DNA of 52,519 nucleotides from Proteromonas lacertae (GCA_002245135.1 NGBS01000920.1:1-52519); one strand, 5' to 3'; shown: positions 18,771 to 50,551, counted from the stretch's first letter. Numbers and translations are program-made. The notes: generated by a model from the letters alone, not told the origin.

Positions 18771-19514
18771 ATGGGTAAGTTTAAAGATTGGTTAAAAAAA
18801 TCTAAAATTCTATCTAGCGCAGCTAGTTTAATACCTTTTGCTGGACCAGCTATTAGTAACAGTATAGAGAATATGGGATATGGTAAGAGAAGGCGTAGAG
18901 GTAGGGTTGCAAGACATAGAGTTACTAGAATGTCACAATTTACACCTGATGGTAGATTCTTAGGTGATACTTCATCTATGACTGGTGGTGGAACTGTTAA
19001 GTTTAGGACAAAATCTGGTAAAGTTGTTTCATTTCATACTAGAAAACGGAAGGGAGCTGGTTTAGGTAGTTTGTTTAAGAAAGGATGGAATAAAATAAGA
19101 AAAATAGCTACAAAAGACAATATTACAAGAGGTATTGAGAAAGCTAAAGAGATAAATAACACTTTAAAAGATAAGAAATATATTAGTAATATATCAGGTA
19201 AGGTAGGTGACATTGCAACAAAATTAGGTTTTAATAAAGTTGGTGATATAGCAAATAATATAAGTTCCACTGCTAGTAACTATGGTTATGGAAAACGTAG
19301 AAGACATAGAGGCGGTAAAAGATTTGGACAAAATGGTGGACTTAGATTACCAATGAATGGTGGTAGTAAAATACGTAGTATAGCTATTACTAAACCTCCT
19401 AGCAATAGGCCTATTTTAAATGGATTAGCTAAACCTTGTGGATTTAACCATAGAGGTTTATACAATCCACAAAACAGTTTACAAAGCTTTTTAGCTTACA
19501 AGTTAACAACATAA
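18771..19514 (+). CDS. Basic core/membrane-lytic precursor protein (PX/pVI/pVII-like), element A
   Basis: Repeated GYG-KRRR, MTGG and MNGG sites, plus the amphipathic helix KGAG-LGSLFKKGWNKIRKIA. Confidence 0.7.
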   Translation: MGKFKDWLKKSKILSSAASLIPFAGPAISNSIENMGYGKRRRRGRVARHRVTRMSQFTPDGRFLGDTSSMTGGGTVKFRTKSGKVVSFHTRKRKGAGLGSLFKKGWNKIRKIATKDNITRGIEKAKEINNTLKDKKYISNISGKVGDIATKLGFNKVGDIANNISSTASNYGYGKRRRHRGGKRFGQNGGLRLPMNGGSKIRSIAITKPPSNRPILNGLAKPCGFNHRGLYNPQNSLQSFLAYKLTT

Positions 19515-19584
19515 ACTTTGTTATTGATTTTATTATTCATTTGATAAATTCTTATTGTTTTTTTATATATTTAATAATAACATA

Positions 19585-20046
19585 ATGTATAACAATCGTT
19601 ATAGCAGATACACTAGAGATTACTATGAAGATGATAGTGATTCATCTTCTGATGATGATTATTCATATGACACTCCACTAGCTAGAGATATGAGTAAAAC
19701 CGATAGACAGATTGCAGAATTGTTATATAACTTAAATCATAGTAATGATAGAGCTACTCCATAATCTAATTCTAAATTAAGTGAAGAGACTAGAAAGAAA
19801 AGAGCTGAAAATTTAGCCAAAGCAAGAGAAGCAAGAATGAGCAAATTAAAAAACAAACAAGATACAAGTAATATATATTTAGAGCAGCAGCAACAACAAC
19901 AACCACAAAAATCAAAATCAATTAGGTTACCAGGTGATAGTGATCCATTTGCACAAACAAAACAAAGTAATGGTAGTGGTTTAAAAATACCACCACCTAA
20001 TGCACCTATGCCTGGTGATAATGCTGTGATGCCAGTTTATTTTTAA
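19585..20046 (+). pseudogene. Acidic/basic virion-module protein, one in-frame TAA (19762-19764)
   Basis: ORFs 19555-19764 and 19837-20046 are in one frame. Homologous to 50592-51095 (DRQIAELLYNLN vs DLQILSQLQGLN; LAKAREAR vs LEKARKAK; PPNAP vs PKNAP). Confidence 0.7.
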
Positions 20047-20107
20047 TTAAAATTTATATTCATTAAATTCTTTATATATTTCAATATATATTTTTTGTTT
20101 ATATATT

Positions 20108-23100
20108 ATGTCAAAACCCAAAAATAAAAAGAGTTTAAAAGAAGCTTTAACTAAACAGTTATTGAAACGTATTAAAAGAAGAGCTAAAGTAAATCGATTT
20201 AACAAAGCTTTGAAAAAGAAAATAAGTAAATCAGTAGGTGTAAGAGTAAATGAAGAAAGTATTATGAGGAATAGAATGAGAGAAGCAGCTTATAGCAATT
20301 TCAATTTGGATCAAGTAGCAACGCAAAATGATTTGAAAATGTTACCAATTTTGTTAGCAGATAAATCATTAACAAAGGAAAAGAAATTAGCATTACAGAG
20401 TTATTATGATGCATTAAAAAGTGGACAAATAACAGCTAAAAACAGAGATTCATTTTTTGGTCCAGTTCAATCTGCACTATTAAAATCATTACCTTATGAT
20501 AGTTATAAAAGTGTGAATGATAATTTAGCTTATATCAAAAATGTTATGCCTGCTTTGCCTGGAGGAGGAAGTAGTTTGAATGGTGATTTAGCAGTTGCTA
20601 TTGCAAATGAATTAGCTAAACGGAGGCATCTCTAATCCATATAGCAGCTCTAAGATAGGAAGTGTACCACCTCCACCACCTCCACGTTTTGGAGGACCTC
20701 CTGGAGGATTTGGTAGTTATCCTCCCCCACCTCCTCCACCTGGTCCAGGAAGCTATATACCACCTCCTACTCCTAGTAGTAAATCTGGTAGTAGTGGTGG
20801 TACATCAATATTACCAGGATCATCACTTCCTCCACCTTCACCTCCATCATCATCAATGTCAGTTCCATCAGCTGCACCACCTTCACCTTCGCCTACGCCT
20901 TCACCTCCATCTTCGCCATCACCACCACCACCTGCTCCATCAGGACCACCTGCTCCAACAGGTCCATCTTCTGAAGAAATTAAATTACAGAAAAAACTAG
21001 ATGTTGTAACAAAAGAGGCTGATAAATATAGAAATATGATAACTGATATATTAAAAGAAAAAGATGAAGCTTAAGCTGCTTATAATAAATTTAAAGCAGA
21101 TACTGCAGCAGAGATAAAAAAGTTTAATAAAGAACATGCTGATGATAAAGCAGCACAACAACAGAATTATGATAATATGGTTAAAATAAAGCAAATGAAG
21201 CTGAAAGAATAAAAAATGAATTGAATCAAGCTAAATTAAAGTATGATAATGCAAATAAAAAATTGAATGCTTATGAAAAAGCAGAATTATCGTTACAAAA
21301 CAAAATAACTGATTTACAAAGTAAAGTAAATGATTTAAATGATCAAAATATGAAATATCAAAGTGATATATCTAATTTAGCTGCCAAAAATAATATTTAT
21401 CAAAATCAAATAAATGATTTAAATGAAATAATTAACTAGTCAAAATAAGGATTATTTAAATGAAATAGAAAAAATGAAAGTGAATATATCTTCATATCAG
21501 TCAGAAATACAAGGTTTAAAAACAACATTAACAGAAGCTAAAGGAAATGAACAAAAAAAGAAACTTTGAATATAATGATTTACTTAATGAATATAAAAAA
21601 TATAAAAAGGATCATGATCCTACTGGTGGTCATCAACTAACTGTTAATGAAAGAAAACAATTAAATGATTTAGAATTAGAATTAATAACTAAAAGAAGTG
21701 AATTAAACATAGCAGCACAAGAAAAAATAGCTCTGCAGAATAATTTAAAAACTCTTAGAAATGATAGAGATAATTAAATTACTGAAAATACTTCTTATAA
21801 GGATATGGTAGATTGTTTAAAACAACAAAAAGAAGAAATTAATAAATAATTCGAAAGTAACAAGATTCAATTAAACAATAAAGAAAATATTCTTGAAGAA
21901 TTTAAAATTAAGCATAAATTATATGCTCAGAAATATAATGAAGAAAGCTATCAAGAATTAAAGAGTTTATATGAAAAACAAATTAGAGAATTAAAACAAC
22001 AGAATGAGGAGTTGAAAAATGCAAATAATCAAAATAAAAGAGAATTAAATTTAGCACTAAATAATGCAGAAAGTCTCAAAACACAATATATACAAAGTTT
22101 AAATAAAAAAGATGAAGAATTAAAAGCATTAGAAGAAATCAAAAATAAAATTGTTAGTGATTATAATACATATAAAGAGGATTACCCATACAGTAAAGCT
22201 GAAGTACAACAAAATGTAACAAATTTAAATAGTAGAATAAATGAATTACAAAGAGAAAAAGAACAAAATTTAATTCAATATAATACAATAAATGATAAAT
22301 TGTCAATAAGAGAAAATGAAATGTTATCACTAAAAATGAATCATGAACAAGCTGAAAAAGATTTAACTAGTCTTCAAGAAAGCTATAATGCTATATCTGA
22401 GGAATTGCAAAATACTAGAGATAAAGATAAAACACAATTCAGCTGTAGAAGAAAATGCATTATTACAAAAAAATTAAATGAAACTTTATTAGTAGGTTAA
22501 CAGTCATTAAAAAATAAACAACATGAAATAGAATACATAAAGAATGAAGCAATCAAAGCTCTTAAAGGAAATGATGCAACTTATCAAAAAAACATGCAAC
22601 AATTATTAAAAAAAATGGAGGAAGAAAAATCAGTTTATGAAGCTCAGTTAGCAAGTGTAATGAATAATGCAAATAAACCTTCTTATAATGATTTAGGACT
22701 TGTACAATATCCCATGATGAATGATTTAATATACAATGAGCCAACTTTAGATTTAACAATACCAAATCCAGTTAATACAGATATAGTCAATCCTGACTTA
22801 TTACAGCGACCTAATAATATTGTTCCAGCTATTAATGAAGAATCAGATGACATTAACCTTCCGCCAAATAAAGAAAGTATTGATGATAAACTGAAAAGAA
22901 TAAACAAATACTTTGATAATTTGAAAGAATATAATGAAAAATATAGTAATAGACCAGAAGAACCTGTAAAATTAGATCCAAATACTTTAACTTATAATCA
23001 AGTGAGGAAGTTTATAGAGAGACGTAAGGCAATAATAAAAAATATAGAACGTAGTACAGTAAATAAAGATTTAGATATGAATAGAACTACTAATAGAATG

Positions 23101-23234
23101 AGAAGAAGAGAAAAGGTTAGAGAAAATATTATAAATTCAGTGAAAACAAGATTAAATAGAATGGCTCAAAATTTATAGTAACTGCAAATGTACCTCAATT
23201 TGTACCTCAATATGAAGAGGTGTCAGTATTTTAA
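20108..23234 (+). pseudogene. ~1000-aa protein (basic N-terminus, Pro/Gly-rich linker, long coiled coil), disrupted
   Basis: Consecutive ORFs join via in-frame TAAs (21072, 21775, 21847, 22498) and small shifts, mostly in A-runs (~20620, ~21185, ~21435, ~21555, ~23170). N-terminus resembles those of 51136+ and 31668-32201. Confidence 0.7.
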
Positions 23235-23267: not shown

Positions 23268-26200
23268 TTATTTTTTATATCCATATGGCAATGTATTGTA
23301 TTTATCAAAAAAATATCTTTTATCATCATAATAGGTTAAGCCAGTTTTGTTTTGTACTGTTGTATAAACATTATGATGTATTGATTTGATTTGACATACT
23401 TCATATTTTTGACTTTTACTAGCACCTTCAACAAAATCATTGTATATGTCATAAGTTATTTTTCTAGAAACTTTCACATTAATACCTTTACAACGATTGT
23501 CAGTATTTGTATTATTATCAGATTCATCATTCACTTTCTCCTTTTCGTATATATAACATTTTGATTTTAATCCTATAAACTTTGTTATAACATACAGGTT
23601 TTTATTATTCTTATCCTGCTCTTCAAATTTTAATCGATTCAATGTACCTGGATGAACAGCTCTATGTATATCTAACTTATATTTTTCTAAATAGGGATTT
23701 TTCAAATTACTTCCATCAATCCAATTATTAAAGATAGGATCCTCTAAGTCTTTAAAAATATCATTAGTTTCAACTGAGAAAAGTAAACTATCAGTATCAG
23801 TCATACATAGTGTTAGTTTATCAGAACCATATTTTTTATCTAATACATCATACCAATATTTTTGCATTTTGAGTTTAGACAGTGCTAAGATAACCATTCC
23901 AATTTGTATAGGTTTATTAATTTCATATAGCTTCTTATGAAAATGTGCAATTCTTAAATCACCTTCAATAATGATAAAGTCTTTAAACCATGGATCACTT
24001 GCAGCATTAATCATTTGGTCTTCATTAGTAATTAAAGAAATGTTACTTCTCTTTTCAACACGTTCCATAAATTTACCGTATAAACTATTCATTAATTTCT
24101 TTATATAGTCTGCAGTAGTATTTTGATTGTTTTCTTTAGCTTGAACTCTTTTTTGTACCATTGTATTAATATATTTACCCATATATAGACCTTCAGTAAA
24201 TCTCATTATTCTATACACTTTACCCACTTTATAGCCATGTTCAACTGCAAACTTCAAATTTTGGTAGTGTATTATATATTTTTCTTTAGGATACAAATCA
24301 GTTATTAATTTTTCAGTAGCATGGTAAGTGCCTCTTTCTTTATATATAATACCAAGATTTTCAGCTCTTTCAGTTTGTATATCAGATAACCATTCTTTAG
24401 GTATTTTCTTCCTTTCAGGTAGTAATGGGTATTCTTTAAACTTGTCTTGTAGTTCTATAGGTAATTCGATATCAACTTCCAATATATAACCAAAATCATT
24501 ATTCTCCAATCTATCTTGATCCATTTCTTCATAATATGGCAAATCAAGTATACTTTCTAATGTAATAGAATTTGGATCAATAAATTCAAAGTCATCTAAA
24601 GGCATTTTACAAGAAGCCATAACTGAAGGGTATAAAGAATTGTAGTCTTGATATAATAAGAATTTACTAGGTAAAGTTTCATCATAATTTTTCATAAATT
24701 TGTTATTTGCATCTTCCTTGCGCTTACCAATATATGATAATCCACCGTATAGACCATTCAATATAAAATCATAGTATTCAGGTTCACAAAATAATTTAAG
24801 TTCCACATCAGATACATGTAAGAATAGATCAAGTGATAAGCTGGGTAATGAAATATACCAACAAGGATCTATGTGAAAAGTATCAAATATATTATCTCTA
24901 AAATCATTAAATATAGACTGAAGGATATAAACATCAATTTTCAAGTAAAATAAATTGTATTCACGTATATTATCAAATCCAAATATTTGATTTACTTCCA
25001 TAGCAAAATCAAATTCTTCAGGTTTAATAGTTTCATTATCATTCAATTTAGACTTAAAATCATCTATAGTAAGATCTTTGAAATTTTCTTCAAAAGCTTC
25101 AAGAGATGTCATATGCTCATATGGAAAATAATTCTTTTGAAGTAAGTATTTTTCAATATTTTCATCATCTAGGTAATGTCCATTATATTCTTTAAAATTC
25201 TCATAAATTGTTTTGAATTTTTCTTTCTTAGTATTATTTAATTCTGCTGTAATTTTTAGATCATTAGTTAAATTTGCTAAAGAACCTGCTAAGAATAAAT
25301 AACTGTCAATAAACACCAAATTTTTGTATTGTATACACTTATAGTTTTCATCTGTATTAGGTATAATATTGAGCGGACTATTAGTTATTGCAGCAAATTT
25401 GGCTAATTCCTTTACTATGAAATGCTGGTCATATTTCATAGCATTGTGACCTATTATTGGTACTTTTAATTTTTTTATATCAATATTAAGATTCTCATTA
25501 CTACCAATTGAAGCAATATAATGGCCTGTGAAATGATCATGGTGAAGTACCTTTATATGATCAATAGAATTAAATGGTTTACCACAAAAGTCACATTTTC
25601 TCTTTTTATTATGTATATCCTTAGCTATTTCATCTCCATCAAAAGGTTTAGGATTAGCTAGTCTATAATTGTAAACTGTACATATTTGATCGTATATATT
25701 TAATATATCCAATACAAAATCATTTTCAATATTATGATCCTCATTTTGTTTATATTTAATCACAGTAAAACTATTTATATCTGGTATTTTACTATCTACA
25801 TAGATACAGTAGGAATAAAGCTTATGCCTAGCCATAATAGATTGCTCAGTTTTTGATAATTCTATTCTAGTATCATTATTATCTATTTCTTCCATAGATT
25901 TATATCTACTTAAATTCAATTCATTATCATATGGTACAAAATAAGTTTCAGTATCATAATACATAACAACTGGCAATGTTTGGAGGTGAGTCCAATGTCT
26001 AAATTTTAAGTATGATTTTTCTTTATCATCTTTATCAGGGAATAATCTTAATACATTCTCTTTATCTTGACAGTCATATATTTGGTGACTATTAAAGGAT
26101 CCATCATCGTAAGTATAGAAGAGACAATATGGACACACAAATATATTATTAGTATTATTCTTTTTATCTATCATTTTTCTAAATAGAGCAGGTAAGGTAT

Positions 26201-27335
26201 TTATTGTTAAATAGTGTGAATTTCCATCTTCATTTTCTATTAGCAATAGATTTACAACACTATATTTTTTAGATTTCTTTTGTTTAGATAAATGAATGGG
26301 TAAGAATATTTCTTCTTTATCTTTAGCTATATCAATATAAAATATATTCACATTTAGTCGATTCTTTGTTTCAAACTTATCAATAGATTCATTGTCTGTA
26401 GCATCAACAGGGAATGTTAACATACTCCAATCATGTTTCTTTTCATACATTTTGTATTTTTCAGGTTTATCTTTATTACATTGGAAATTATTAGAATATA
26501 ATGAACATAGTACACTCCACTTAAAACATTTATTATCTTCATTTATTACATTTGTCAAACATCTATGACCTTGAAGTTTAGCAGGTAAAACAATAAAACT
26601 GCTTCCACGTATTACTTTAAATTTTGTTACATATAATTCAATAGTATTTACTTTAGCAAAAGTAAGACCACTTTGAGGATGATTTGAATCATCTTCTGAT
26701 ATTTGTGTAAATATATTCTCCAGTATAGTTTGTATTTCACCTACAGTAGACATTTTTGTTATTTCACATAGTCTTCTACGACTAAATATAGAAACTTCAT
26801 CATCACTGTCAGTAGACTCATCAGGTATATAAATTGAACGTACAATAAAGAAGAATTTGATCATATTCATAGTATCAGCTAGTTCATGTAATATATCTTT
26901 GATATCACTATTATTAACAAAATCATGATAACATTGTTGTGGTGTATTGTAATTTCTATTGTTATAATTGAAAACCCATTTCCTGGTAACACCTTGAGAT
27001 GATTTATCAACTTCTCTAGCATCACGTATTCTATCATCAAATCTTTGATTTTGGTTAGGTTTTGGTAGGGAAGAAGGCATTAATCCACCAAAGAATGTAT
27101 CACTGATTATTGGTATATCATTATTGTATCTTTTTTTATTTTGAATAGCATCTGTACTAAATAATGGCGCTAATCTTCGTTTTGGAGCTGCTTCTGGTGG
27201 TGGAGGTGCAGGTGCTTCATCTATATGTTTATGTTTATGATGATGGTGATGCTTATACTTATGATGTTTATTTTTATTAAAAGTTTGTTCTAGAAGCTTA
27301 AAAAATGCTTTAAATGCTTTATATAGACAAAACAT
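23268..27335 (-). CDS. Intact protein-primed family B DNA polymerase (terminal protein region, OTU-like protease, Zn finger, exonuclease with EndoVII-like insert, polymerase)
   Basis: IRGSSFIVLP, NEDNKCFKWSVL...SHYLTI, CPYC...H...C, YYDTET, HNAMKYD, YQDYNSLYPS (A), KKLMNSLYGK (B), MTDTDSL (C), GLKSKCY, CKG, DDKRYF...TLPYGY. Confidence 0.97.
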   Translation of the reverse strand: MFCLYKAFKAFFKLLEQTFNKNKHHKYKHHHHHKHKHIDEAPAPPPPEAAPKRRLAPLFSTDAIQNKKRYNNDIPIISDTFFGGLMPSSLPKPNQNQRFDDRIRDAREVDKSSQGVTRKWVFNYNNRNYNTPQQCYHDFVNNSDIKDILHELADTMNMIKFFFIVRSIYIPDESTDSDDEVSIFSRRRLCEITKMSTVGEIQTILENIFTQISEDDSNHPQSGLTFAKVNTIELYVTKFKVIRGSSFIVLPAKLQGHRCLTNVINEDNKCFKWSVLCSLYSNNFQCNKDKPEKYKMYEKKHDWSMLTFPVDATDNESIDKFETKNRLNVNIFYIDIAKDKEEIFLPIHLSKQKKSKKYSVVNLLLIENEDGNSHYLTINTLPALFRKMIDKKNNTNNIFVCPYCLFYTYDDGSFNSHQIYDCQDKENVLRLFPDKDDKEKSYLKFRHWTHLQTLPVVMYYDTETYFVPYDNELNLSRYKSMEEIDNNDTRIELSKTEQSIMARHKLYSYCIYVDSKIPDINSFTVIKYKQNEDHNIENDFVLDILNIYDQICTVYNYRLANPKPFDGDEIAKDIHNKKRKCDFCGKPFNSIDHIKVLHHDHFTGHYIASIGSNENLNIDIKKLKVPIIGHNAMKYDQHFIVKELAKFAAITNSPLNIIPNTDENYKCIQYKNLVFIDSYLFLAGSLANLTNDLKITAELNNTKKEKFKTIYENFKEYNGHYLDDENIEKYLLQKNYFPYEHMTSLEAFEENFKDLTIDDFKSKLNDNETIKPEEFDFAMEVNQIFGFDNIREYNLFYLKIDVYILQSIFNDFRDNIFDTFHIDPCWYISLPSLSLDLFLHVSDVELKLFCEPEYYDFILNGLYGGLSYIGKRKEDANNKFMKNYDETLPSKFLLYQDYNSLYPSVMASCKMPLDDFEFIDPNSITLESILDLPYYEEMDQDRLENNDFGYILEVDIELPIELQDKFKEYPLLPERKKIPKEWLSDIQTERAENLGIIYKERGTYHATEKLITDLYPKEKYIIHYQNLKFAVEHGYKVGKVYRIMRFTEGLYMGKYINTMVQKRVQAKENNQNTTADYIKKLMNSLYGKFMERVEKRSNISLITNEDQMINAASDPWFKDFIIIEGDLRIAHFHKKLYEINKPIQIGMVILALSKLKMQKYWYDVLDKKYGSDKLTLCMTDTDSLLFSVETNDIFKDLEDPIFNNWIDGSNLKNPYLEKYKLDIHRAVHPGTLNRLKFEEQDKNNKNLYVITKFIGLKSKCYIYEKEKVNDESDNNTNTDNRCKGINVKVSRKITYDIYNDFVEGASKSQKYEVCQIKSIHHNVYTTVQNKTGLTYYDDKRYFFDKYNTLPYGYKK

Positions 27336-27351: not shown

Positions 27352-27740
27352 ACGATAATAATGAAAGAAGGGGGGAAATGAGTACAATTTGAAACCCCTA
27401 TTTTTTTTGTATTTTTTGTATTGATTTCCCCCTATGTGTTTTTTGTCCGTTTCATTATCAAACCATTATTCAAGCTTACATTATTTTTCGCTTTTCTGTT
27501 TGAATTTAAACAAAAATAATTATTCCATTTGAATCCTCATCTTATGATGAATCTATTTATGTTGTTAGTTCAAATTATAGAAAGTGAATGACATATAATT
27601 TCAAAAAATAATTCAATAAAAACAATCTCAATAGGATGGTCAACACATGGTGTGATATGACACCATATAGTGACCATCCTATGTAATAAAAAAAAAAAAA
27701 TGGAGTTCAAGTCAAATCTCGAAATGCATCTATTTTTCTA
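27352..27740 (+). repeat. Left copy of imperfect inverted repeat, with 52-nt hairpin (27631-27682)
   Basis: ATAATAATGAAAGAA, CCCCTATGTGTTTTTTGTCCGTTTCA, the hairpin and TGGAGTTCAAGTCAAATCTCGAAATGCATCTATTTTTCTA all have reverse-complement counterparts, in mirrored order, at 43762-44133. Confidence 0.88.
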
Positions 27741-27851
27741 TTATTGATATTTCTTATAAGACTTGTTATAATGCTAATTAATTATGTAAATTATGAAAAC
27801 AACACTCCCACACAAACACAATATATCATTTGAACCAATTAGGACCAGAGA

Positions 27852-30949: not shown

Positions 30950-31633
30950 TTATATTAATCCAAATTGTTTTTTCATTAACCTAATTTTTGCTTCACCTAC
31001 TATTGTATTATAGTCAGTAGCCTTTTTGAAACTACACTGATCTCTTAAAATATTTTTCAAAAAATTAATAGCAAAAAAACCACAGTTGGCAGTATTTGAA
31101 TTTTGATTCTGTACTCCATTGATTTTAAGTTCATACTTTTCATTATGATACTTCTTTAATTTTTTCAAATTTTTTTTAAATTCTTCCAAGTGTTGAGGAT
31201 CTTCACCAAATGAATCATAGTACAGGAATTGCTTCTTGATATTGTCAACTACTAAAGCCACCCAATGACCTATAGAATCAAGGCTAGCTTGTGTGGTGAG
31301 TGTATTGATTATGATTCCCCATTGATTCTTCTTTTTGGGTATAGGAAGTACAAGCTCGTCCCAGCAGAACACTCCCATGAACTTTCCATGGAAATTATTG
31401 AACTCATTTTTCACAATTAACTCTATATCAAAGTTCGATAAGGCATCTGAAGTGATACTGTTATACAAAACTTTCCTACGTGAAATTAATTTCTTTACTT
31501 TTTTATTATTTCCATTACCTATTCCAAAGTAACTCATAGCTTCACTGAGTTGTTTTCCTTTATCATCTTTAGCATCAGTTGACGGCTGTACTTTAATATC
31601 TGTTTCTGCTTTAGGAGTAATCAATTTATTCAA
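30950..31633 (-). CDS. Adenain-like maturation cysteine protease, element B
   Basis: IGHWVAL, YYDSFG, VQNQNSNTANCGFFAINFL: His/Asp/Cys catalytic residues plus oxyanion Gln. Confidence 0.93.
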   Translation of the reverse strand: MNKLITPKAETDIKVQPSTDAKDDKGKQLSEAMSYFGIGNGNNKKVKKLISRRKVLYNSITSDALSNFDIELIVKNEFNNFHGKFMGVFCWDELVLPIPKKKNQWGIIINTLTTQASLDSIGHWVALVVDNIKKQFLYYDSFGEDPQHLEEFKKNLKKLKKYHNEKYELKINGVQNQNSNTANCGFFAINFLKNILRDQCSFKKATDYNTIVGEAKIRLMKKQFGLI

Positions 31634-32976: not shown

Positions 32977-33270
32977 TTACATTCGAGCCACCTTTGATTT
33001 TAAATATGCGTTCAATAATGCTTGTTGATTACTCCCACCTCCATTGAATGGTAATCTACCTCTTCCTGACCTACGTCTTCTACGACCAAATCCCATTGTT
33101 GATAATCCATCTGCGATATCGTTCTTTCCAAATTCCCTAGCTATTTTGGATGCTATTTTATGATCCTTTGCCCAGTTAAATGCTTTGGAACCCCAATTTT
33201 TTAACTTACCCCAAAATGAACCACCCCTTCTTCCATAAACGCATCTACGTCTTCTACCACCTTTTGGCAT
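32977..33270 (-). CDS. Small basic core protein with pVI-like amphipathic helix
   Basis: RRGG-SFWGKLKNWGSKAFNWAK; MGFG-RRRRR. Confidence 0.7.
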   Translation of the reverse strand: MPKGGRRRRCVYGRRGGSFWGKLKNWGSKAFNWAKDHKIASKIAREFGKNDIADGLSTMGFGRRRRRSGRGRLPFNGGGSNQQALLNAYLKSKVARM

Positions 33271-33329: not shown

Positions 33330-33817
33330 CTAGAAAACTCTAATCTTATTGTCAATATATCGATTATCGAGACTATTACTACTTTTACGTCTTTTACCAG
33401 AACCAGTCTTTTTCTTTGCTAACAAAAATTTCGGTATAGTGCTTGGACCACCTAACATCTTTACAGCAAATGGATTAGCCATTCCACCATTTTTTAAATA
33501 GGGCATACTGCCTGACCACCACTAATTACACTTTTTACTTCCTTTGGTATCTTTGCATTCTTAACTTTATTCCAAAAAGAACCACCACTTATACCACCAT
33601 CATAATTCCATTCTGCTTGTCCACCTCTTCTTCTACGTTTTCTACCATATCCTACATTGGATACAACATTACCTAAGGCTGGACCTACACCTGGGATTAA
33701 ACTAGCTGCTGTTGATAAAATTTTTGTTTTCTTAAAGAAATTCTTTACTCCATCCCAGAACTTGCCTTTACCTATGATATACTTACGATATTTCGCTTTT
33801 GAACTTCTTTTAACCAT
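33330..33817 (-). pseudogene. Second core/pVI-like precursor of B, frameshifted near 33500-33515
   Basis: IIGKG-KFWDGVKNFFKKTKILSTAASLIPGVGPAL closely matches the N-terminus of 18771. The shifted frame continues NGGMANPFAVKMLGG...LDNRYIDNKIRVF* to 33330. Confidence 0.65.
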
Positions 33818-36879: not shown

Positions 36880-37737
36880 TTATTCCGAATCGCTGGGATA
36901 ACTTGATGAATCAGTGGACTCATCATCGCTGCTATAGGAAATGAGGTGATCATATTTATTATTGTGATTATATCTATTATTACTATTATCTCTAATTCTA
37001 CTATCAAAATTCACTCTAAATTCATGATTATATAAATCGATATATAAAAATGAGTGATTACTCTGTTTGGTTGCATAATCATAATATGATTTGAAAACAT
37101 CGAAATCAATCCATATATCCAAACTTGCATACAAATTTCTTAAATTAGCCATACTCAGGTTTTTGAATACCAAACAGTAATCAAGCTGTAAACGAACAGA
37201 GGGAGTAATGTCAGTGACATATTGACTTGATATAATTACTTTTGACTTGTAATGACGGTTTGACTTAAGTAATTTAGAAACGGATTTATTTCTTAAATCA
37301 AATGATATATCATCGAATATAAATATATTCTCTGGGTAATCATAATTATCTTTGTCTATATCTTTGATATTATCTAATACTGCATCCAATATATTCACTC
37401 TATCTTCATTCACTACTGAATCATAGCAATGGTACTCAATTTGGTTATACTTGAGCATATCAGTGATTTTCTCATATATAATATCCTTGGATATAGTTGC
37501 AACGAAAAAATACACTACTTGGTCATATCCCTTTTTTAACAAGTGTTGGATCATATTAAATATAAGTGTAGTCTTACCACTGTTTTTCTTAGCTAAAATA
37601 AATATGTTGCAGAAAGGCTCCTGAAAATAGTCATATCCAAGGACACTATCTTTGGAGCGTTTTCCACATCCTTTGACTACTGTCTCAACAGGATTTATGA
37701 CTATGTTGTTTATTTTTTCTAAATTAACTTTACTCAT
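36880..37737 (-). CDS. A32-like DNA packaging ATPase, element B
   Basis: AKKNSGKTT, IFIFDD, SNRHYK, ISSQY. Clear paralogue of 12063-12824. Confidence 0.93.
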   Translation of the reverse strand: MSKVNLEKINNIVINPVETVVKGCGKRSKDSVLGYDYFQEPFCNIFILAKKNSGKTTLIFNMIQHLLKKGYDQVVYFFVATISKDIIYEKITDMLKYNQIEYHCYDSVVNEDRVNILDAVLDNIKDIDKDNYDYPENIFIFDDISFDLRNKSVSKLLKSNRHYKSKVIISSQYVTDITPSVRLQLDYCLVFKNLSMANLRNLYASLDIWIDFDVFKSYYDYATKQSNHSFLYIDLYNHEFRVNFDSRIRDNSNNRYNHNNKYDHLISYSSDDESTDSSSYPSDSE

Positions 37738-37799: not shown

Positions 37800-39281
37800 T
37801 TAAACTACACTTACAATACCACTTCCATTAATAGTGACCATACGTCCAGTGATGATATAGAAACGATGAGTGATATCATTATTAGTAAAGTCATTCTTAC
37901 CAGGTGTTGAAAATTCAAAGGTTATTTTCAAATCAGTAGCCAAAGGTCTACCTGCCTGGTTCTTAATATTGTCCAAATCCTTAGAGCCAAAATTCAATAT
38001 CTCAAAGAACTTGTCATTGAACTTCTTATCTTTTCTGAATATATCAAACCATGAGTCTTGGAAATATTCACGGACAGTCATATAGCTATCATAATATTGC
38101 ATAAGTGTATAATCTGGCTGATAGACAAAGTCATTGATCATCCATCTGAATTGTGCATTTTCAGGTACATGTGCATATCTTTTTAATGATTCTATCCATG
38201 GCCTATAGATAATGTAACGAACAAATGGTCCATTGGAACTATTCAATGTGAATGAATAATTGAATATGCCAGATCCACCTGATGGTACAACAATTTGATG
38301 GCATCTGAAATCATTGAATTGAATAGGTTTTGATAAACAATATTGTTTGGTATTATTGTTGCATTGAGTATCCTTGTTGATATAAGCATAAAATTTAAAA
38401 TTCTTAAATGTCATATTTTTAATACCACCATTCCTATCCCATGCTATAACATTATTTAAATCTTCAAAGCCATTTTCATCAATACAATATTCGATTGGTG
38501 TATATGATTTCAAATTTCCATAATTTGCTTTAGTTTGGAATCGAATGCATATATACATTCTCTCTCCAAAGAATACATCGCTCTTTAATGCAGCAAATGT
38601 ATTGTAAAATTTACCTAACTGTAATTTGAAATGTAATGTCTTTTTATTCTTATATTGAATAGCACTAGTTACTTTTTCATCACTTTCATTATAAATCTCT
38701 ACAGTATTAGTAAATTCATCATCTTCCGTTTCTTTATCCATTTTCCATTTATTAACATCTTGAATAAGATAACTGTGTTCATCGTTACTCCAATCTAATT
38801 GTATTCCATCATAGTAATTGTCTTGATAGAATATATCGCATCTCTTTCTAACTAATTCATCCATAAATACACGATATGGTTCATACGAATCATCAAGCTT
38901 GACCAGATCTGTTCCAGTCTGGTTACAAATTCTAAAAGAGGCCAAGCCAAACCCTTCTTTAATTCCTCCAATTGTACTTGGATATAAATCATCATCTTTA
39001 TTTATAAGTTTCTTACTTAAATCTGCTCTAACAGCACCTACTTCTGAACCTTTTGCTACTGGTTCTGTTTCTACATCTATATCGAATTGGATATATGACT
39101 TAGCGAGATTAATGATATTATCTCCACTTATCTCCCATCTAATCTCTTCTGTATACGTGTTATCACTTAGAGTATATTCTGATGTTGATCCCATCGGAGT
39201 CAATCTCACATAATTATAGAAGGGTAGCATCACAGGGACATCTACACCATGTTTCTGTTCTTTTGGAATAGATAAAGCCAT
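37800..39281 (-). CDS. Major capsid protein (double jelly-roll expected), element B, intact 493 aa
   Basis: IRWEISGDNIINLAKSYIQFDI resembles the Polinton MCP N-terminal strand motif. Size, beta-rich composition and position between ATPase and minor capsid agree. Confidence 0.85.
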   Translation of the reverse strand: MALSIPKEQKHGVDVPVMLPFYNYVRLTPMGSTSEYTLSDNTYTEEIRWEISGDNIINLAKSYIQFDIDVETEPVAKGSEVGAVRADLSKKLINKDDDLYPSTIGGIKEGFGLASFRICNQTGTDLVKLDDSYEPYRVFMDELVRKRCDIFYQDNYYDGIQLDWSNDEHSYLIQDVNKWKMDKETEDDEFTNTVEIYNESDEKVTSAIQYKNKKTLHFKLQLGKFYNTFAALKSDVFFGERMYICIRFQTKANYGNLKSYTPIEYCIDENGFEDLNNVIAWDRNGGIKNMTFKNFKFYAYINKDTQCNNNTKQYCLSKPIQFNDFRCHQIVVPSGGSGIFNYSFTLNSSNGPFVRYIIYRPWIESLKRYAHVPENAQFRWMINDFVYQPDYTLMQYYDSYMTVREYFQDSWFDIFRKDKKFNDKFFEILNFGSKDLDNIKNQAGRPLATDLKITFEFSTPGKNDFTNNDITHRFYIITGRMVTINGSGIVSVV

Positions 39282-40273: not shown

Positions 40274-40358
40274 AAGATAAAATCTATTTTGAAAATAAAT
40301 TCGTTAATAATGTCAATATTGTCATTATTAGTATTAATTACACTTTTATTTTTTAAAA

Positions 40359-40964: not shown

Positions 40965-41055
40965 TTTATTGATAATAAATACATTACTTTGATTAATTTT
41001 GTTTTCTTATATAAGATTCTCATAAACACACATTGACTTTGATGTAATAACTGTT

Positions 41056-41268: not shown

Positions 41269-41328
41269 TTATTTTTTAATTTTTATATTATATTATTATA
41301 TTATGTTGTTTTTATTTTTGGTTAAACT

Positions 41329-41430
41329 TGTATCTTACAACTGGCCCAAGTTGTAAGATACATCACAATTCAAGTTACAACTGGCGCCAGTTGTAACTTA
41401 TATTACAATTCAAGTTGCAAAGTGGCGGCC
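41329..41430. repeat. Array of palindromic units with 40-bp period
   Basis: 14-bp perfect stem 41329-41342 / 41349-41362. Perfect 28-bp palindrome 41372-41399. Degenerate third unit from ~41412. Confidence 0.9.
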
Positions 41431-41504
41431 GGATATAGCAATACCAAACACCAAAAACAAACACACATAACATTACATAAAAAAAGAATATATATAGAAT
41501 TACT

Positions 41505-41876
41505 TTAATTATCCATATTAGGAACTGGAATACCATACTGATAATGCCTGCCATTATGCACAACAATACGATGTGGATCATTCTTTGGCGCGGCTCGTGG
41601 ACCGGCTCGTCTTGGTTTACGTTTTGCTCTATCTTTACTTCCTTTTGGTCTTCCTCTTTGTTTAGGTGGATTAGCAGCTAATAATCGTTCATACATTTTC
41701 ATTAATTGTCTATATTGTAATTTAACTTTTGTTTTGTTTTGTAGTGCATTCTTTACTTTGTCTCTATACAAATCATAGCTCTTTCTCCATTTACTCCTGT
41801 TAACTGATTTAGGAATATATGTATTCCAGTCTTTACTAATTTTAAACCCTTTTGGCCATCCTTCATAATAAGACAT
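41505..41876 (-). CDS. Basic AT-hook DNA-binding protein
   Basis: PKQRGRPKGSK AT-hook followed by KRKPRR. Confidence 0.65.
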   Translation of the reverse strand: MSYYEGWPKGFKISKDWNTYIPKSVNRSKWRKSYDLYRDKVKNALQNKTKVKLQYRQLMKMYERLLAANPPKQRGRPKGSKDRAKRKPRRAGPRAAPKNDPHRIVVHNGRHYQYGIPVPNMDN

Positions 41877-41981
41877 GTTGTGATTTTTTATAATTGATAT
41901 TATTTAAAATATAGTAACTATTAATAGTATGTTTATCAAACAAAAACAAACATATATAATAATAATAGAATTTTTAAGTAT

Positions 41982-42428
41982 TTAATCAGAGTCACTACTA
42001 CTACTACTACTAATTCCATCAGCAACATTTCTATCAACTGGATGTATGTGATAAAAATTCCCTCCATTCCATTGATAACTCATATGATGAAAAACATATT
42101 TTTTAAATTTTTGAGGAATACAATCACCATCTGCATACTCATGTTCTCCATTTCTTAATTTTCTATTCATTACTAATATTGAAGCTCTTCTGTCATACCC
42201 ATAGGTTTTGAGGTTTATCATTAATTGATCACCATGATGTCTATAATCACCTAGTACTTCTGGATCATTTCTATTAGTTCTGAGTGAACCACATATAAAC
42301 ACCTTTACTTTATTTCTTTTTAATATTTTCATTGTTTTAATTGGAAATTGAATGACCCATCTATGTGCTCTATTGTCTCTATATCTATGAATGTAAAAAG
42401 CATATTCACCGTTAGGTTGTCTAAGCAC
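41982..42428 (-). CDS. Hypothetical His/Arg-rich protein
   Basis: 148-aa ORF; 5' end probably frameshifted. Confidence 0.5.
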   Translation of the reverse strand: MLRQPNGEYAFYIHRYRDNRAHRWVIQFPIKTMKILKRNKVKVFICGSLRTNRNDPEVLGDYRHHGDQLMINLKTYGYDRRASILVMNRKLRNGEHEYADGDCIPQKFKKYVFHHMSYQWNGGNFYHIHPVDRNVADGISSSSSSDSD

Positions 42429-42863
42429 ATATTATATGTTAAATGGTCAGGCATATTCTTTGTATTTTTTGCTATTATATATATTATTAAATTTTTATGG
42501 GTCTAATCAATAAAGTTATTGTTTGTTTAGTAATACAAATGTTTGAGGTTTGTTAAAAAAATAATATCTCACGATCCATTGACATAATGAATAATCTGAT
42601 GTGTTTCTTATTATATGGCATATTATGAGCAATCGATTGATATAGTTAGATTTCATATATGTTTCATAATCAAAGATGATTTAGATTATTGCCTGAAATG
42701 AGATATTGATATAATTGAGATGGGTATATACCCTAGTAAGTATATATAATTTATAGTTAGCTAAAGTCAATTTGTTTTGTAACAAGAGTACAAAATTTTA
42801 ATGTATTGATCAAGCTATAAAGTTTGACATTTTTCTATTTGATTTAAGTTTTTTGCAGTACAT

Positions 42864-43497
42864 ATGAATAGTGAGATTAAAACAGTTACTGTCTACAAAA
42901 GACAGTTCAATTCAAGAGTAATGAACAATGTATTTCAAGTGCAATTATATAATTTGGAGATGATCTTTAAAGCAAGGAATAAGCTAAGTCGTTATAGGTA
43001 TATTTTATATCTATATATTTTATAGATATAATGGAAAGTTTTTATGCTCAAGTTTAAAAGATTATGTTGAAAGATTTAGAAGACTTCCCTTAAAATTGAC
43101 AAGAAAATCACAGGTTGATGAATACAAGAAGCTTTTAAGCATAATTATGTTCAATTGTCACTATTACCCTAAATCTAAAAAATCATTTGTATATTTATAT
43201 ATCTATATATTTATATATTATAAATAGGTTGATAGAGCATTAGATTACTTTATTTACGATCTACTCCATGAATTAAATATATCTTCTGTAGAATTTGGAG
43301 ATGATGATTATCCATCAAACAGTATAAGTGAATATGAAGATGATAATGGAAACACTAAAGTTAATTTTATTTCTGGTGAAGGTATCAAAACAGTTGTTGA
43401 AGTAGTTGTAAAAGATTTAATAGACAATGTTTTGAAAAAGTTCAAGAAGCCAAGAAAACTTTATGACGACATAGAAGTATTTGACATTGATGAATAG
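42864..43497 (+). CDS. Spliced hypothetical protein (gene X, copy 2; 188 aa); exons 42864-42997, 43026-43188, 43228-43497
   Basis: Absent from the ORF track. GT-AG introns 42998-43025 (28 nt) and 43189-43227 (39 nt) restore one uninterrupted frame homologous to copy 1. Confidence 0.88.
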
Positions 43498-43761
43498 GAC
43501 TGCTAATTAAGTCCTTAAAATTTATTATTATATAAATTTCAATAAAAAATATTATATATCAAAATAGTGTTTGTTTGGGGTTATTATAAGTGTATGTATA
43601 TATGCGTAGCTAATTATACGCAAAATTTGTTTTTATTAAATTAGATTTCGATTATAGTCAAACATAAATAATAAATACATAGAAAGATAGAGAAAAAGAA
43701 AACAAATCAATTGATATATTTATAATGTATTCAAACTAATCCTAGCTCTAACTATAACACT

Positions 43762-44133
43762 TAGAAAAATAGATGCGTTTCGAGATTTGACTTGAACTCC
43801 ATTTTTTTTTTGTTTTTTTTTATTACATAGGATGGTCACCATATGTTGTCATATCACACAGTATGGTGGCCATCCTATCTATCATTGTTTTTTGAAACTT
43901 TTTAAGAAAATTAAATTTCGATTATGATCAGAAAGTCAAACTAAGGGCATATATGAGCCCAGCATAAATAGAGAAATCGATTGATATATTTATTATGCAT
44001 TAAAAACGTTTCTAAGGGTGAAAAAACAATATGGGGTTATGTATATTATAAAACGGATATTTTTTTGAAACGGAAAAAACAATAGGGGGTTATGTATAGG
44101 TATACATAACCACCTTTCTTTCATTATTATGTT
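43762..44133 (-). repeat. Right copy of imperfect inverted repeat, with 52-nt hairpin (43827-43878)
   Basis: Reverse-complement similarity to 27352-27740. Its outer edge coincides with the truncation point of the element C MCP. Confidence 0.88.
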
Positions 44134-45209
44134 GTAAGCATTTTCTGCATTTGATAATATGAATCCTGATTGTTTACGTATAAGAAATCAGGAGTATAAA
44201 CAAAATCGTTTAATAACCATCTAAATCTAGTATCAGGATGATCAAAAGATACTGTTTGTTCATCATTATCTACTGCAGTATACAATATATACTTAACATA
44301 AGGACCAATACTTGAATCAATTGTAAAATTGTACTGGAAATGATTAGTAGCTGTTGAATTAGTAACTGTTGTTTGGACAATATTAAAATCATTAAAATCA
44401 ATAGGATGACGATATACCCAATTTAAAGTATTGGCATTACAATCAGGATCAGTATTGTAACAAGCATATAATTCCAAATTAAATAAATCTACTTTTGGTT
44501 ATATCATATCATGATCACCTGGACCTTTTTCTGCCATGCATGTTTTAGATCTAGGTCCAAAAGTAAATTGAATGAAAATCTTCTCTCCAAAGAACATATC
44601 ATTGGATAAACTCAATATGGTATTATATAATTCTCCTAATATCATTCTAACTTTGCATATATTTGCATTATCTTCCAAAGGAATATCTTTAGTAGGACAA
44701 TTTGAACTACTAAATCCAGTTACTGTTCTGTTCTTTATTTCCCATCTTCCTGCTTGGTTATTCCATTCTTTATGTATACCAGTAAATAATTTACTATTTT
44801 GATCAAAATAGTTATCATCAATAATTACTTTCTTGGCTAATTGTGCTGCAATATCTCTATAATCATTATACTGAAAATCCAAATCACATATCAAGGAACC
44901 AGTAATATTATACACTCTAATTGTGGATAAATTGAAAGTATTAAAGAGGATTACTGTAGGATTTTCAACACCTTGAATATCCTCTGCTTTATCCCAATAG
45001 AATTTTTGTTCCCATTCCATATAGGATTGAGACAAATTAATACAATTATCAGGAGATAACTCGAATGTAACAGTATTTGAGGAATTACTTTCCTGCAAAG
45101 TAATAACATCTCTTGTTTGATTAGGAGTAATACGTATCCAATGTTGTTCTGGTTTAAAAACTTGGATATCACTTGAATATTTTTGAGATGTAGGAATTGA
45201 TAATGACAT
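44127..45209 (-). pseudogene. Major capsid protein of C: in-frame TAA at 44499-44501 and C-terminal truncation
   Basis: ORFs 44499-45230 and 44127-44477 are in frame and align with the A and B MCPs. The protein ends at YYQMQKMLTT, lacking the final FF-x-x-LNF...FYIITG region. Confidence 0.85.
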
Positions 45210-45253: not shown

Positions 45254-46207
45254 TTAAAAAATAAGAATTTCTAAGCATAAAGTTACTTCATCCAAACTAA
45301 TTCCATAGCCATCCTCCTGAGAAAGGGATATTGTTATTAAATCATTTTGATGATAACCTATTCTTCTAGCAGTTAATTTAGGATTAGGATTGTTATATAC
45401 TATATAAGGTTCTTCAAATCTTTCAATAGGTATATTTGCCAAAACATTAGAATCCTCATCCTGATTGACAGTATCGAATCTTATCTGCAATTGACTTACT
45501 GATATTAAGGTTGGTCTGCAAGGAAATTCATATTTTTGAGGATTTGAAATGATTCCATTAATCACTTTTGTATTTGTTATTTCACTTTCATCATATTTCT
45601 TTTTCCATAAAACTATCTTTATATCTCTATGATCTTCACCAAATAATTTGAATATATTATTCAGAAGTTCCATCCAAATATCCTCTACCCATATAAACTT
45701 TTGAGGAATTGGTGCTTCATGCGATTTGAATACATACTTTATCTTATAGTCTAAATCTAACTTATTCTTTCTATTAATACTTATAATATTTGCAGGATCA
45801 ATTAGTTCATTTGGTAGTATTATATCATCTTTAATATAAGGAAATCTTCTCAAAAATCCTTCATTTATAACATTGAGGATTTCATCCTCTGAATAGTATC
45901 CTAAAGGAATACGAATATTATTATCATATGATATAGTTTGTAAAGGATCTATTTTTCCTGAATCTGGATCTATTTGTAATTCTTCTCCGTGTATATGGAT
46001 TTTAAAGTAGTTATTAATGTCGAGTTGGATTGTTGGAAATGTATTACTAATTGATGCAGACAATAATGTAATATTACGGTATCGTTCATCAACGCTGGGA
46101 ACGCGTATGGTTCTATGGTATTCATCATGAGGAAGTTAGGGATCATAATCTTTTGTATTTACTATAAGCTTACGTTCAATATTATTAAAATCTTTCTTCT
46201 TTTGCAT
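45254..46207 (-). pseudogene. Minor capsid protein of C with one in-frame TAA (46136-46138)
   Basis: ATG at 46207 gives MQKKKDFNNIERKLIVNTKDYDP*LPHDEY...LLSASISNTFPTIQ, then RIPLGYY, VLANIPI, SQEDGYGISLD. Confidence 0.82.
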
Positions 46208-49501: not shown

Positions 49502-49507
49502 TTATTA

Positions 49508-50077
49508 TTATATTTTTCTAAACTTGGTGGCTAATAACCTTGCTCTTTCCTCTCCTTTTACTGTATTGAAATTTGTTGCATCAACGAATGATAGGTTATG
49601 CAATAAAATATCTCTTAAAAATAAAATAGCATGATATCCACAAGTGGACGTTGTTATCCTTTGATTAACAACTCCATTTATTTTCAGCTTATAATCTTGT
49701 TGAGGATCTGCTTTAAGATGCTTGATATACTTAACAAAGGACTTGGTATGTTCTGGCTTTTCTCCAAAACTATCATAATAAAGGAATTGATGTTTATCAT
49801 TATCAATTACCAAACTCACCCAATGACCAATCTTTTCAGGAGGATCCTTCCTCTTCAAAGTACATATTATTACTCCCCACTTATTCAAATTCAGTTTAGG
49901 AATGCTCTTAATTTCATCCCATAAAAACACTCCCCCAAACCTACTTAACATTTCAGGAAAGTTTGATTTTATTACTTTAGGAATATCATAGTTAGATAAA
50001 GCCATGTCATATGGTTTCTTGGATTTTTCACCATGTCCATATACTCTGTTATTAGTAAAGCATAAACGTAGTTTCAT
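49508..50077 (-). CDS. Adenain-like maturation cysteine protease, element C
   Basis: IGHWVSL, YYDSFG, VNQRITTSTCGYHAILFL. Confidence 0.93.
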   Translation of the reverse strand: MKLRLCFTNNRVYGHGEKSKKPYDMALSNYDIPKVIKSNFPEMLSRFGGVFLWDEIKSIPKLNLNKWGVIICTLKRKDPPEKIGHWVSLVIDNDKHQFLYYDSFGEKPEHTKSFVKYIKHLKADPQQDYKLKINGVVNQRITTSTCGYHAILFLRDILLHNLSFVDATNFNTVKGEERARLLATKFRKI

Positions 50078-50152
50078 CCTAAAAATTGCAAGAAAATGAG
50101 AAATGAATTCATTTTTAATTTTCTATTCATATTTGAAAACAACCAATCACAT

Positions 50153-50551
50153 ATGAATGTTTTAGGTGGGCGTAAACGACGTTATCGAAGAGGTAGATCC
50201 GTTTCAAGAAGAAGAAGAGGACGAAGAGGAAGATCAAGTGGAAGGTACAAGTTTGGCTTGATGGGTAAACTTATAAGACATGAAGTACCGAATACAATGT
50301 TTCGAGGATTGAAGAAAGGAAGAGGAAAAGTAACTGAAGTTGCAAGCAAAGCTTTAGATATCATGAAGGTATTAGGGTTAGGAAAAGTTAGAGGAGGAAT
50401 AAGATTTGGCGTAAATGGAGGTAGAAGACGTAGAAGAAGAGGCAGTCGAGCAAGAAGACATAGACATCGTACATACTGTATAAAAGGAGGAGCACATACA
50501 AGTATTCCTATGAAATTAAATAATTTCCTTTTAAGTAAAATCTCATCTTAA
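50153..50551 (+). CDS. Arg-rich protamine-like core protein precursor, element C
   Basis: VLGG-RKRR, LGLG, VRGG, VNGG-RRRRRR, IKGG; C-terminal LNNFLLSKISS. Confidence 0.75.
   Translation: MNVLGGRKRRYRRGRSVSRRRRGRRGRSSGRYKFGLMGKLIRHEVPNTMFRGLKKGRGKVTEVASKALDIMKVLGLGKVRGGIRFGVNGGRRRRRRGSRARRHRHRTYCIKGGAHTSIPMKLNNFLLSKISS

What the first reader, a model, noticed from the sequence alone, without database searches (positions are those of the whole stretch)
18771..50551. Adenovirus-like maturation system: core polyproteins with adenain sites exposing pVI-like lytic helices and protamine-like peptides
Seen: the basic ORFs near each protease (18771-19514, 32977-33270, 33330-33817, 50153-50551) are strings of modules separated by Gly motifs. 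Several match the adenovirus protease consensus (M/I/L)xGG|x or (M/I/L)xGx|G exactly: MTGG, MNGG, ISGG (twice), IIGK|G, IKGG. MRGK|G (31668), MKGG (51136 gene) and IQGL|G (15445 ORF) also fit. Predicted products begin with amphipathic helices (SFWGKLKNWGSKAFNWAK, KFWDGVKNFFKK, LGSLFKKGWNKIRKIA) resembling the adenovirus pVI membrane-lytic N-terminus, or with Arg runs like pVII/mu. The module set is one gene in A, two genes in B and reduced in C. Inference: infectious virions with endosome-lytic entry; also a source of candidate membrane-active peptides.
Basis: partly seen in the sequence, partly recalled or inferred. Interest (0 to 1): 0.7.

Follow-up and report, generated by a model that had tools for sequence, protein, structure and literature searches.

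The report
Virophage capsid tail as separate gene
Small, very basic genes beside the proteases of these integrated DNA viruses are free-standing, repeated relatives of the tail that virophages carry on their capsid protein; they are likely cut by the viral protease into DNA-binding peptides and two-faced helices predicted to bind membrane or capsid, which makes them an adenovirus-like, but not adenovirus-derived, packing and entry kit.

Summary
The basic ORFs, Gly motifs and amphipathic helices are real, but the closest system is the virophage capsid tail, not adenovirus pVI/pVII. The window holds three Polinton-like elements. Their basic ORFs belong to a widespread family (229 clusters at E<=1e-3) of stand-alone proteins with 1-5 modules: Arg run, GG|x or Gx|G, amphipathic helix, G(Y/F/L)|G, Arg run. 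A family profile's best hit in the whole PDB is the C-terminal domain of mavirus major capsid protein (E=0.0089), with two cuts mapped by mass spectrometry (GG|S, GY|G; PMC6048507) in register with the module borders. Against three other virophage tails: HH probability 97.8%; against eight pVI: 4.3%. The capsid proteins here and in related contigs have no tail, so the tail looks split off as its own gene. Cutting, packaging and membrane lysis are inferred, not shown. A and C are degraded; B lacks a polymerase within its repeats.

The parts
18771..19514 (+). Element A core gene, 247 aa: module 1 (res 1-38), Arg run, module 2 (res ~97-174), Arg run, xNGG repeats, conserved C-terminal peptide
   Evidence: profile scores; hydrophobic moments
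32977..33270 (-). Element B core gene B2, 97 aa: Arg run-RRGG|helix...GF|G-Arg run-FNGG|C-terminal peptide; the cleanest single module
   Evidence: weak pVI hit
33494..33817 (-). Element B core gene B1, 107 aa: one module homologous to A module 1, then GG-spaced short peptides
33330..33506 (-). B1b, 58 aa, overlapping B1 in another frame; GG sites, basic, ends in Phe like many family members; B1/B1b look like one broken gene (inferred)
50153..50551 (+). Element C core gene, 132 aa: long Arg run, GG sites and the clade's C-terminal peptide, but no scoring module; a lineage variant, since a 67% identical relative exists
30950..31537 (-). Element B clan CE cysteine protease, 195 aa from first Met (frame open to 31633); His91, Asp108, Gln145, Cys152 present
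   Evidence: Pfam C48 and C5 above cut-off; alignments; model pLDDT 68.6, Foldseek hits NEDP1, adenovirus protease (best TM 0.60), I7L, pS273R
49508..50077 (-). Element C protease, 189 aa, His/Asp/Gln/Cys present
18318..18677 (-). Element A protease, interrupted by an in-frame stop after His/Asp and before Gln/Cys
37800..39281 (-). Element B major capsid protein, 493 aa, double jelly roll, no basic C-terminal tail
   Evidence: low-confidence model (pLDDT 45.7) whose top Foldseek hits are Sputnik and mavirus MCP, then PBCV-1; no module score
12895..14341 (-). Element A major capsid gene, in two frames; C-terminal end tailless like B
44127..45209 (-). Element C major capsid gene, with in-frame stops and no recognisable last part
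36880..37737 (-). Element B packaging ATPase (A copy at 12063-12824)
   Evidence: A copy has Pox_A32 above cut-off; A-B E=1e-70, closest to ATPases of L017, L043, L061, L064
39314..40273 (-). Element B penton-position gene (A copy 14396-15367; broken C copy ~45254-46200); penton identity inferred from position and size
27633..27740 (.). Left terminal inverted repeat of element B, starting AG, with internal hairpin
43762..43876 (.). Right terminal inverted repeat of element B

Best explanation
These genes are free-standing, sometimes repeated homologues of the C-terminal domain of the virophage major capsid protein, in Polinton-like viruses whose own capsid protein has no such tail; they are likely packaged inside the particle and likely cut by the neighbouring clan CE protease at GG|x and G(Y/F/x)|G into Arg-rich peptides predicted to bind DNA and an amphipathic helix predicted to act on membranes at entry. 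Shown: modular anatomy, conservation, homology to the virophage tail, tailless capsid genes, intact catalytic residues in B and C, gene linkage. Inferred from mavirus (PMC6048507): cutting at those sites, with a relaxed P4 (mavirus accepts Val and Lys there). Inferred further: before cutting, the precursor tethers DNA to the capsid wall and may supply in trans the assembly help that the mavirus tail gives in cis; after cutting, the genome is released and the helix is free. Rough odds: homology 0.9, cutting in virions 0.75, membrane activity used in entry 0.45.
For: Blind PDB search with a 38-member profile holding no capsid protein: best of 177,635 sequences is mavirus MCP 6g45_A residues 516-597, E=0.0089; read against the fragment limits in PMC6048507 (chain has 4 extra residues), the mapped cuts after 516 (GG|S) and 567 (GY|G) fall on the two module borders. 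Module alignment against three virophage tails: probability 97.8%, E=6.9e-13; HMM 51, 38, 10 bits, 0 of 100 shuffles each. A profile from the window and 12 close relatives alone scores two of three tails above all 300 shuffles (19.4, 10.5 bits). None of 9 candidate capsid proteins from the window and 6 module-bearing contigs scores with the module; the 3 virophage ones do. 5 of 5 contigs over 14 kb with a stand-alone module also encode the protease; in L003, L006 and L022 the module genes lie between capsid and protease genes. In the family, 44% of 252 post-border 18-mers exceed the 95th background percentile of hydrophobic moment against 4.8% of shuffles.
Against: No cut, packaging, DNA binding or membrane activity was tested. 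The mavirus hit is modest (19.5 bits) and the second hit, HIV Tat (E=0.074), shows how much the GYG-Arg run alone can score. The third virophage tail scores 1.3 bits with the window-only profile (2 of 300 shuffles reach it). The wider profiles descend from a search that included P0008, which had led to the first virophage contig, so they are not fully independent. PMC6048507 could not detect the tail fragments in native mavirus virions, and its membrane role is a proposal. Capsid identity in L003, L006, L022 is by size and position (no match to the window MCP). Contigs were picked by the module, so linkage is not a two-way test. C's gene lacks the helix module. A and C are degraded, and B1 is broken.
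Confidence: 0.68

Rival explanations
1. Same origin and cutting, but the helix is a capsid-binding scaffold or cement element only; it has no membrane-lytic role, and entry uses another route (for example engulfment with a helper giant virus).
For: PMC6048507 passages show a scaffolding role of the mavirus tail in assembly and only predict the lytic helix. The most conserved part of the module is the second half (KxxKxIS...G(Y/F)G), not the N-terminal helix; A's first module and C have weak moments. B has no polymerase within its repeats, so it depends on something else.
Against: Three window helices are cationic (+4 to +5), Trp/Phe-rich and in the top 4% by moment; the three virophage tails are in the top 0.5%, which fits lipid-binding peptides.
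Confidence: 0.3
2. One reading: true homologues of adenovirus pVI (helix) and pVII/mu (Arg runs), cut with adenain specificity, giving endosome-lytic virions.
For: B2 residues 14-62 find three pVI chains among 5 PDB hits, best E=0.43, 41 ungapped columns; a pVI N-terminal profile gives B2 15.3 bits and 7 of 266 modules over 10 bits against 0 shuffled and 0 reversed; 31 of 159 family proteins have W(S/N/D/G)G(I/L/V)K, as pVI does; 54 of 159 end in Phe, as pVI does; the protease model has its best TM-score with adenovirus protease; window sites fit the N/Q-extended consensus (13 vs 5.0).
Against: Module HMM gives no signal on 8 pVI (best 0.9 bits; 7-87 of 100 shuffles reach it); profile-profile probability 4.3%, score 16.2 against a column-shuffle maximum of 16.0; the pVI hit vanishes with family profiles; no Pfam MCPVI match in 38 members; P4 is M/I/L at 44 of 252 and 37 of 300 borders, R/K at 144 of 252. 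The query was trimmed after seeing the weak hit.
Confidence: 0.2
3. The motifs are a chance product of Gly- and Arg-rich low-complexity sequence in decaying elements.
For: With 14% Gly, shuffles already give 23 of the 31 GG|x or Gx|G sites (100 of 5000 reach 31). Several genes of A and C are broken.
Against: Border glycines are invariant or nearly so in 38 divergent proteins; 229 clusters share the module; register with mapped mavirus cuts.
Confidence: 0.03

Closest known systems
Virophage (mavirus, Sputnik-type) major capsid protein C-terminal domain, cut by the virophage cysteine protease (PMC6048507, passages and supplement passages read)
   Same: Homologous sequence; GG|X and GY|G borders in register; first fragment with amphipathic helix, later fragments basic; clan CE protease, A32 ATPase and jelly-roll capsids alongside.
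   Different: Here it is a separate gene, often repeated (1-5 modules by motif count, 1-2 in this window) or duplicated, with much longer Arg runs and a conserved terminal peptide; the capsid protein is tailless and not in the Pfam Sputnik MCP families.
Adenovirus pVI, pVII, pX/mu and adenain (PMC7998265, passages read)
   Same: Separate core precursor genes next to capsid and protease genes; Gly-Gly-type sites; amphipathic helix right after a cut; protamine-like peptides; frequent terminal Phe.
   Different: No significant homology; P4 rule not kept; one module combines helix and Arg run; no Cys-containing pVIc-type peptide in the window's termini.
Adintovirus Cupiennin / PLA2X / GasderminX and adomavirus LO6 ('Macc' class) (PMC8502044, 10.1101/341131, PMC11071296; passages read)
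   Same: Earlier proposals of membrane-active, protease-cut core proteins in polinton relatives; LO6 was found in cut form in virions.
   Different: Those are animal-associated and were linked to pX/pVI or venom peptides, not to the virophage tail; whether Cupiennin is the same family was not tested (no sequences on hand).
Gossevirus (GKS1) group of Polinton-like viruses (PMC7805220, PMC10120064, 10.64898/2026.06.19.733378; passages read)
   Same: Protist PLVs with a cysteine protease as core gene and a capsid model closest to Sputnik's, as found here.
   Different: Membership not tested; the passages seen name no substrate for the protease.

Membership tests
Virophage MCP C-terminal domain homologues | Profile-level sequence similarity to virophage tails | tested here: met
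Virophage MCP C-terminal domain homologues | GG|X and GX|G sites in the same places | tested here: met
   mapped mavirus cuts in register with module borders
Virophage MCP C-terminal domain homologues | Amphipathic first fragment and basic later fragments | tested here: met
   met for A module 2, B1, B2; not for A module 1 or C
Virophage MCP C-terminal domain homologues | Fused to a Sputnik-type capsid protein | tested here: not met
   stand-alone ORFs; window MCP tailless, no Pfam PF21915/PF22031 match. The elements are therefore not filed as virophages.
Virophage MCP C-terminal domain homologues | Cut by the virus's own protease in virions | not testable with these tools
   needs biochemistry
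Adenovirus pVI | Sequence homology (Pfam MCPVI PF02993, profile match) | tested here: not met
   0 of 38 members match Pfam MCPVI at E<=1; HH probability 4.3%, module HMM no signal on 8 pVI; residual short likeness at helix start is inconclusive
Adenovirus pVI | Amphipathic helix exposed after a Gly-Gly cut | tested here: met
   predicted only
Adenovirus pVI | C-terminal protease cofactor peptide with Cys and terminal aromatic | tested here: not met
   window termini have no such Cys-Phe end; family often ends in Phe (54 of 159), so a cofactor role is not excluded
Adenovirus pVI | Membrane lysis | not testable with these tools
   needs liposome or cell assay
Adenovirus pVII / pX (mu) | Sequence homology | tested here: not met
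   no Pfam match for the window ORFs or 38 family members; no PDB hit. Only composition is alike.
Adenain-type processing | Conserved (M/I/L)xGG|x or (M/I/L)xGx|G sites | tested here: not met
   modest excess in the window (8 vs 3.3) but P4 not conserved across the family
Clan CE viral cysteine protease | His-Asp-Gln-Cys residues and fold | tested here: met
   B and C; A is interrupted
Polinton-like virus | Double jelly-roll MCP, A32 ATPase, terminal inverted repeats | tested here: met
   (capsid model low confidence)
Polinton (Maverick) in the strict sense | pPolB and rve integrase inside one pair of repeats | tested here: inconclusive
   both PolB genes (6324-8831, 23268-27335) lie outside B's repeats; 28830-29996 looks integrase-like by eye but has no Pfam match
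Gossevirus (GKS1) group | MCP in the Gossevirus cluster | not tested
   no reference sequences on hand

The most novel reading that the evidence does not exclude
The module is the common ancestor of the internal proteins of this whole virus lineage: a capsid tail in virophages, a free repeated gene in protease-bearing Polinton-like viruses, and the source of adenovirus pVI (helix after GG, terminal Phe peptide) with pVII/mu-like Arg peptides. Adenovirus-style maturation and membrane-lytic entry would then predate adenoviruses and run in abundant protist viruses.
Probability: 0.25. Interest if true: 0.85.

Novelty: new variant of a known kind. Interest (0 to 1): 0.62.

Why it matters
Protease-bearing Polinton-like viruses have tailless capsid proteins, so their protease had no evident substrate in the passages read. 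This family supplies one, with cut sites predictable from a biochemically mapped homologue, and is unannotated in Pfam despite at least 229 clusters. It shows a capsid domain switching between fused and free form, the same arrangement adenoviruses use, and makes two open points testable with small proteins: whether the virophage tail helix is lytic, and whether its scaffolding job can be done in trans. It also gives a marker gene for finding such viruses in metagenomes.

Tried and rejected
No whole genome is held, so copy number and host were not established. Sequencing-run search for 30000-34000: none was listed, no RNA holder listed. PDB sequence searches with A's protein and alignments A1, A2 gave nothing significant. 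The ESM Atlas gave only sub-0.9 unnamed clusters for A's protein. Scans for loci close to the window's own core or protease genes found none, so the neighbours of the closest relatives (P0001-P0007, P0010-P0014) are unknown. Of 126 loci screened, 16 had a profile hit; three (L019, L067, L117) were judged chance motif matches and dropped, L001/L002 are one contig. P0144 (760-aa repeat) and P0009 (the window's own protein) were dropped before family counts. A non-standard genetic code was considered because three in-frame stops are TAA and rejected: conserved protein ends also use TAA and host exons are long without it. No complex prediction of protease with B2 was obtained, and the wide structural search was not run; both leave nothing for or against. 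A direct test against adintovirus Cupiennin was not possible. Literature: nine searches and passage look-ups found no description of a stand-alone virophage-tail gene; subscription papers, bioRxiv supplements and the figure of aligned tails in PMC6048507 were not visible, and any of these may bear on novelty.
Full report
Setting. The window is AT-rich eukaryotic DNA. Its left 6 kb holds fragments of a Hydin/CFAP65-like ciliary gene, broken by stops and frame changes, with long uninterrupted stretches; this suggests a flagellated, intron-poor host, probably a protist (inference; not established, no genome held). The rest is three related virus-like gene sets. B lies between inverted repeats at 27633-27740 and 43762-43876. 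Each set has a capsid gene, a penton-position gene, a protease and basic genes; A and B have an A32 ATPase. B's capsid protein gave a poor model (pLDDT 45.7) whose five hits at E<=0.001 are all double jelly-roll capsids, led by Sputnik and mavirus. B's protease is clan CE with all catalytic residues.

Check of the observation. The ORFs and motifs are there, except that 33330-33817 is two overlapping ORFs. Strict adenain sites are modestly in excess (8 against 3.3; 61 of 5000 shuffles), more so with the N/Q-extended consensus quoted in PMC6048507 (13 against 5.0; 6 of 5000). Relatives show which sites matter. In eight relatives of A's protein and five of B2 the M of MTGG and the I of IIGK|G are not kept; what is kept is a basic run ending in GG or GxG before a helix, G(Y/F)G plus an Arg run after it, and xNGG before a terminal peptide.

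The family. A profile of 12 sequences found 229 representatives at E<=0.001 among 1.84 billion, of which the best 150 were listed. They are stand-alone basic proteins of 69-471 residues, apart from one spurious repeat (output partly cut). Among 159 proteins counted, 57 have one border motif, 50 two, 28 three, 10 four, 5 five and 9 none; 54 end in Phe against 3.2% background. At 300 C-borders P1 is Tyr, Leu or Phe and P4 is M/I/L in 37; at 252 N-borders P4 is M/I/L in 44 and R/K in 144. The window's proteins form a subgroup with their own terminal peptide, shared by A, B2 and C. No Pfam family covers them.

The link to virophages. A distant relative, P0008, matched the tail of a Sputnik-type capsid protein at 67% identity. 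PMC6048507 (passages) reports that mavirus protease cuts the capsid tail at three GG|X sites and one GY|G, that such sites recur in 10 of 12 virophage capsid proteins, that the first fragment has a predicted amphipathic helix proposed for endosome rupture, that later fragments are basic and proposed to hold DNA, and that the tail helps assembly. A profile of 38 single-module proteins, none a capsid protein, found the mavirus tail as its best PDB hit (E=0.0089), with GG|S and GY|G on the module borders; in that alignment the residues at P4 of the mavirus cuts are Val and Lys, which also fail the adenain rule. Three more tails match the family at 97.8% probability. The least circular test, a profile from the window and 12 close relatives, passes two of three tails.

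Split, not fused. The window's capsid proteins end without a tail, as do seven candidate capsid proteins from six contigs carrying the stand-alone gene. All five such contigs over 14 kb encode the protease, in two of them fused to a larger protein; three shorter ones examined (L017, L064, L073) show none. In L003 and L022 the order is capsid, module gene(s), protease. The ATPases of L017, L043, L061 and L064 are close to the window's (E 1e-26 to 1e-44) and the L043 capsid matches weakly (59.7%); the L003 capsid does not, so the free gene occurs in at least two capsid lineages.

The adenovirus question. Eight pVI sequences were fetched and confirmed by Pfam for two. The module profile sees nothing in them; profile against profile gives 4.3% over 16 columns. 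In reverse, the pVI profile gives B2 15.3 bits and a small excess among modules (7 of 266 over 10 bits; none in shuffled or reversed sets), and B2 alone finds pVI at E=0.43-1.4. This is a hint confined to the helix start. The system works like adenovirus core maturation; it is not shown to be descended from or ancestral to it.

Mechanism. Most likely the precursor is packaged with its helix part against the capsid wall and its Arg runs on the DNA; the protease cuts at the borders, loosening the genome and freeing the helix, which may breach the vacuole membrane. Homology and anatomy are shown; packaging, cutting, DNA binding and lysis are inferred, the last weakly. These copies are not evidence of current infectivity: A has a split capsid gene, a stopped protease and a broken polymerase, C has stopped capsid and penton-position genes, B has a broken B1 and no polymerase inside its repeats.

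Prior work. Membrane-active, protease-cut core proteins were already proposed for adintoviruses and adomaviruses (PMC8502044, 10.1101/341131, PMC11071296; passages). Gosseviruses are described as protease-bearing PLVs with Sputnik-like capsid models (PMC10120064, PMC7805220, 10.64898/2026.06.19.733378; passages). Adenovirus facts come from PMC7998265 (passages). Passages of PMC11161782, PMC12220804, 10.64898/2026.10.13.758929, 10.1101/2025.10.09.676808 and 10.1101/2025.02.07.637071 added nothing on this family. Nine searches found no account of the free-standing tail. Earlier notes of this scan had nothing at this place or sequence; some describe Gly-Gly-fenced Arg tags in giant viruses, a similar theme, untested here.

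Verdict. Real, conserved, and re-filed: a new free-standing variant of the virophage capsid tail. Interest 0.62.

Noticed in passing
window 27633-43876: Element B (16.2 kb) has full capsid, ATPase and protease genes but no polymerase between its terminal repeats; the repeats contain a hairpin and no clean target-site duplication was seen. It may have inserted into element C, whose polymerase could be 23268-27335.
   Followed up: partly
window 5626-6324 (-): One open frame joins a PolB motif-bearing stretch directly to Hydin-like sequence near 6200: a deletion, rearrangement or assembly join between element A and the host gene.
   Followed up: no
window 15445-18243 (+): The 932-aa ORF ends in IQGL|G plus a Lys/Arg run, like a module border; a possible cleavable basic tag. 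The 1078-aa ORF at the same position in C is not detectably similar.
   Followed up: partly
window 20108-20635, 31668-32201, 51136-51729: Genes at the same position after the core gene all start with a very basic 40 residues (+13 to +16) yet show no pairwise similarity; preceded by acidic/Tyr-rich genes (19585, 32270, 50592).
   Followed up: partly
window 20640-23178 (+): A long proline-rich then coiled-coil coding region broken into several frames.
   Followed up: no
window 1-800 (-): rve integrase fragments of a separate element at the window edge.
   Followed up: no
L043 10728-14759 and L061 2552-4207: The maturation protease is fused to large uncharacterised proteins (1343 and 551 aa).
   Followed up: no
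L003 6379-9848: Two tandem tailless capsid-like genes precede the module gene and protease.
   Followed up: no
family proteins P0017-P0161: Many end in a short peptide after the last GG with a terminal (K/R)F, a candidate protease cofactor or capsid-binding end.
   Followed up: partly
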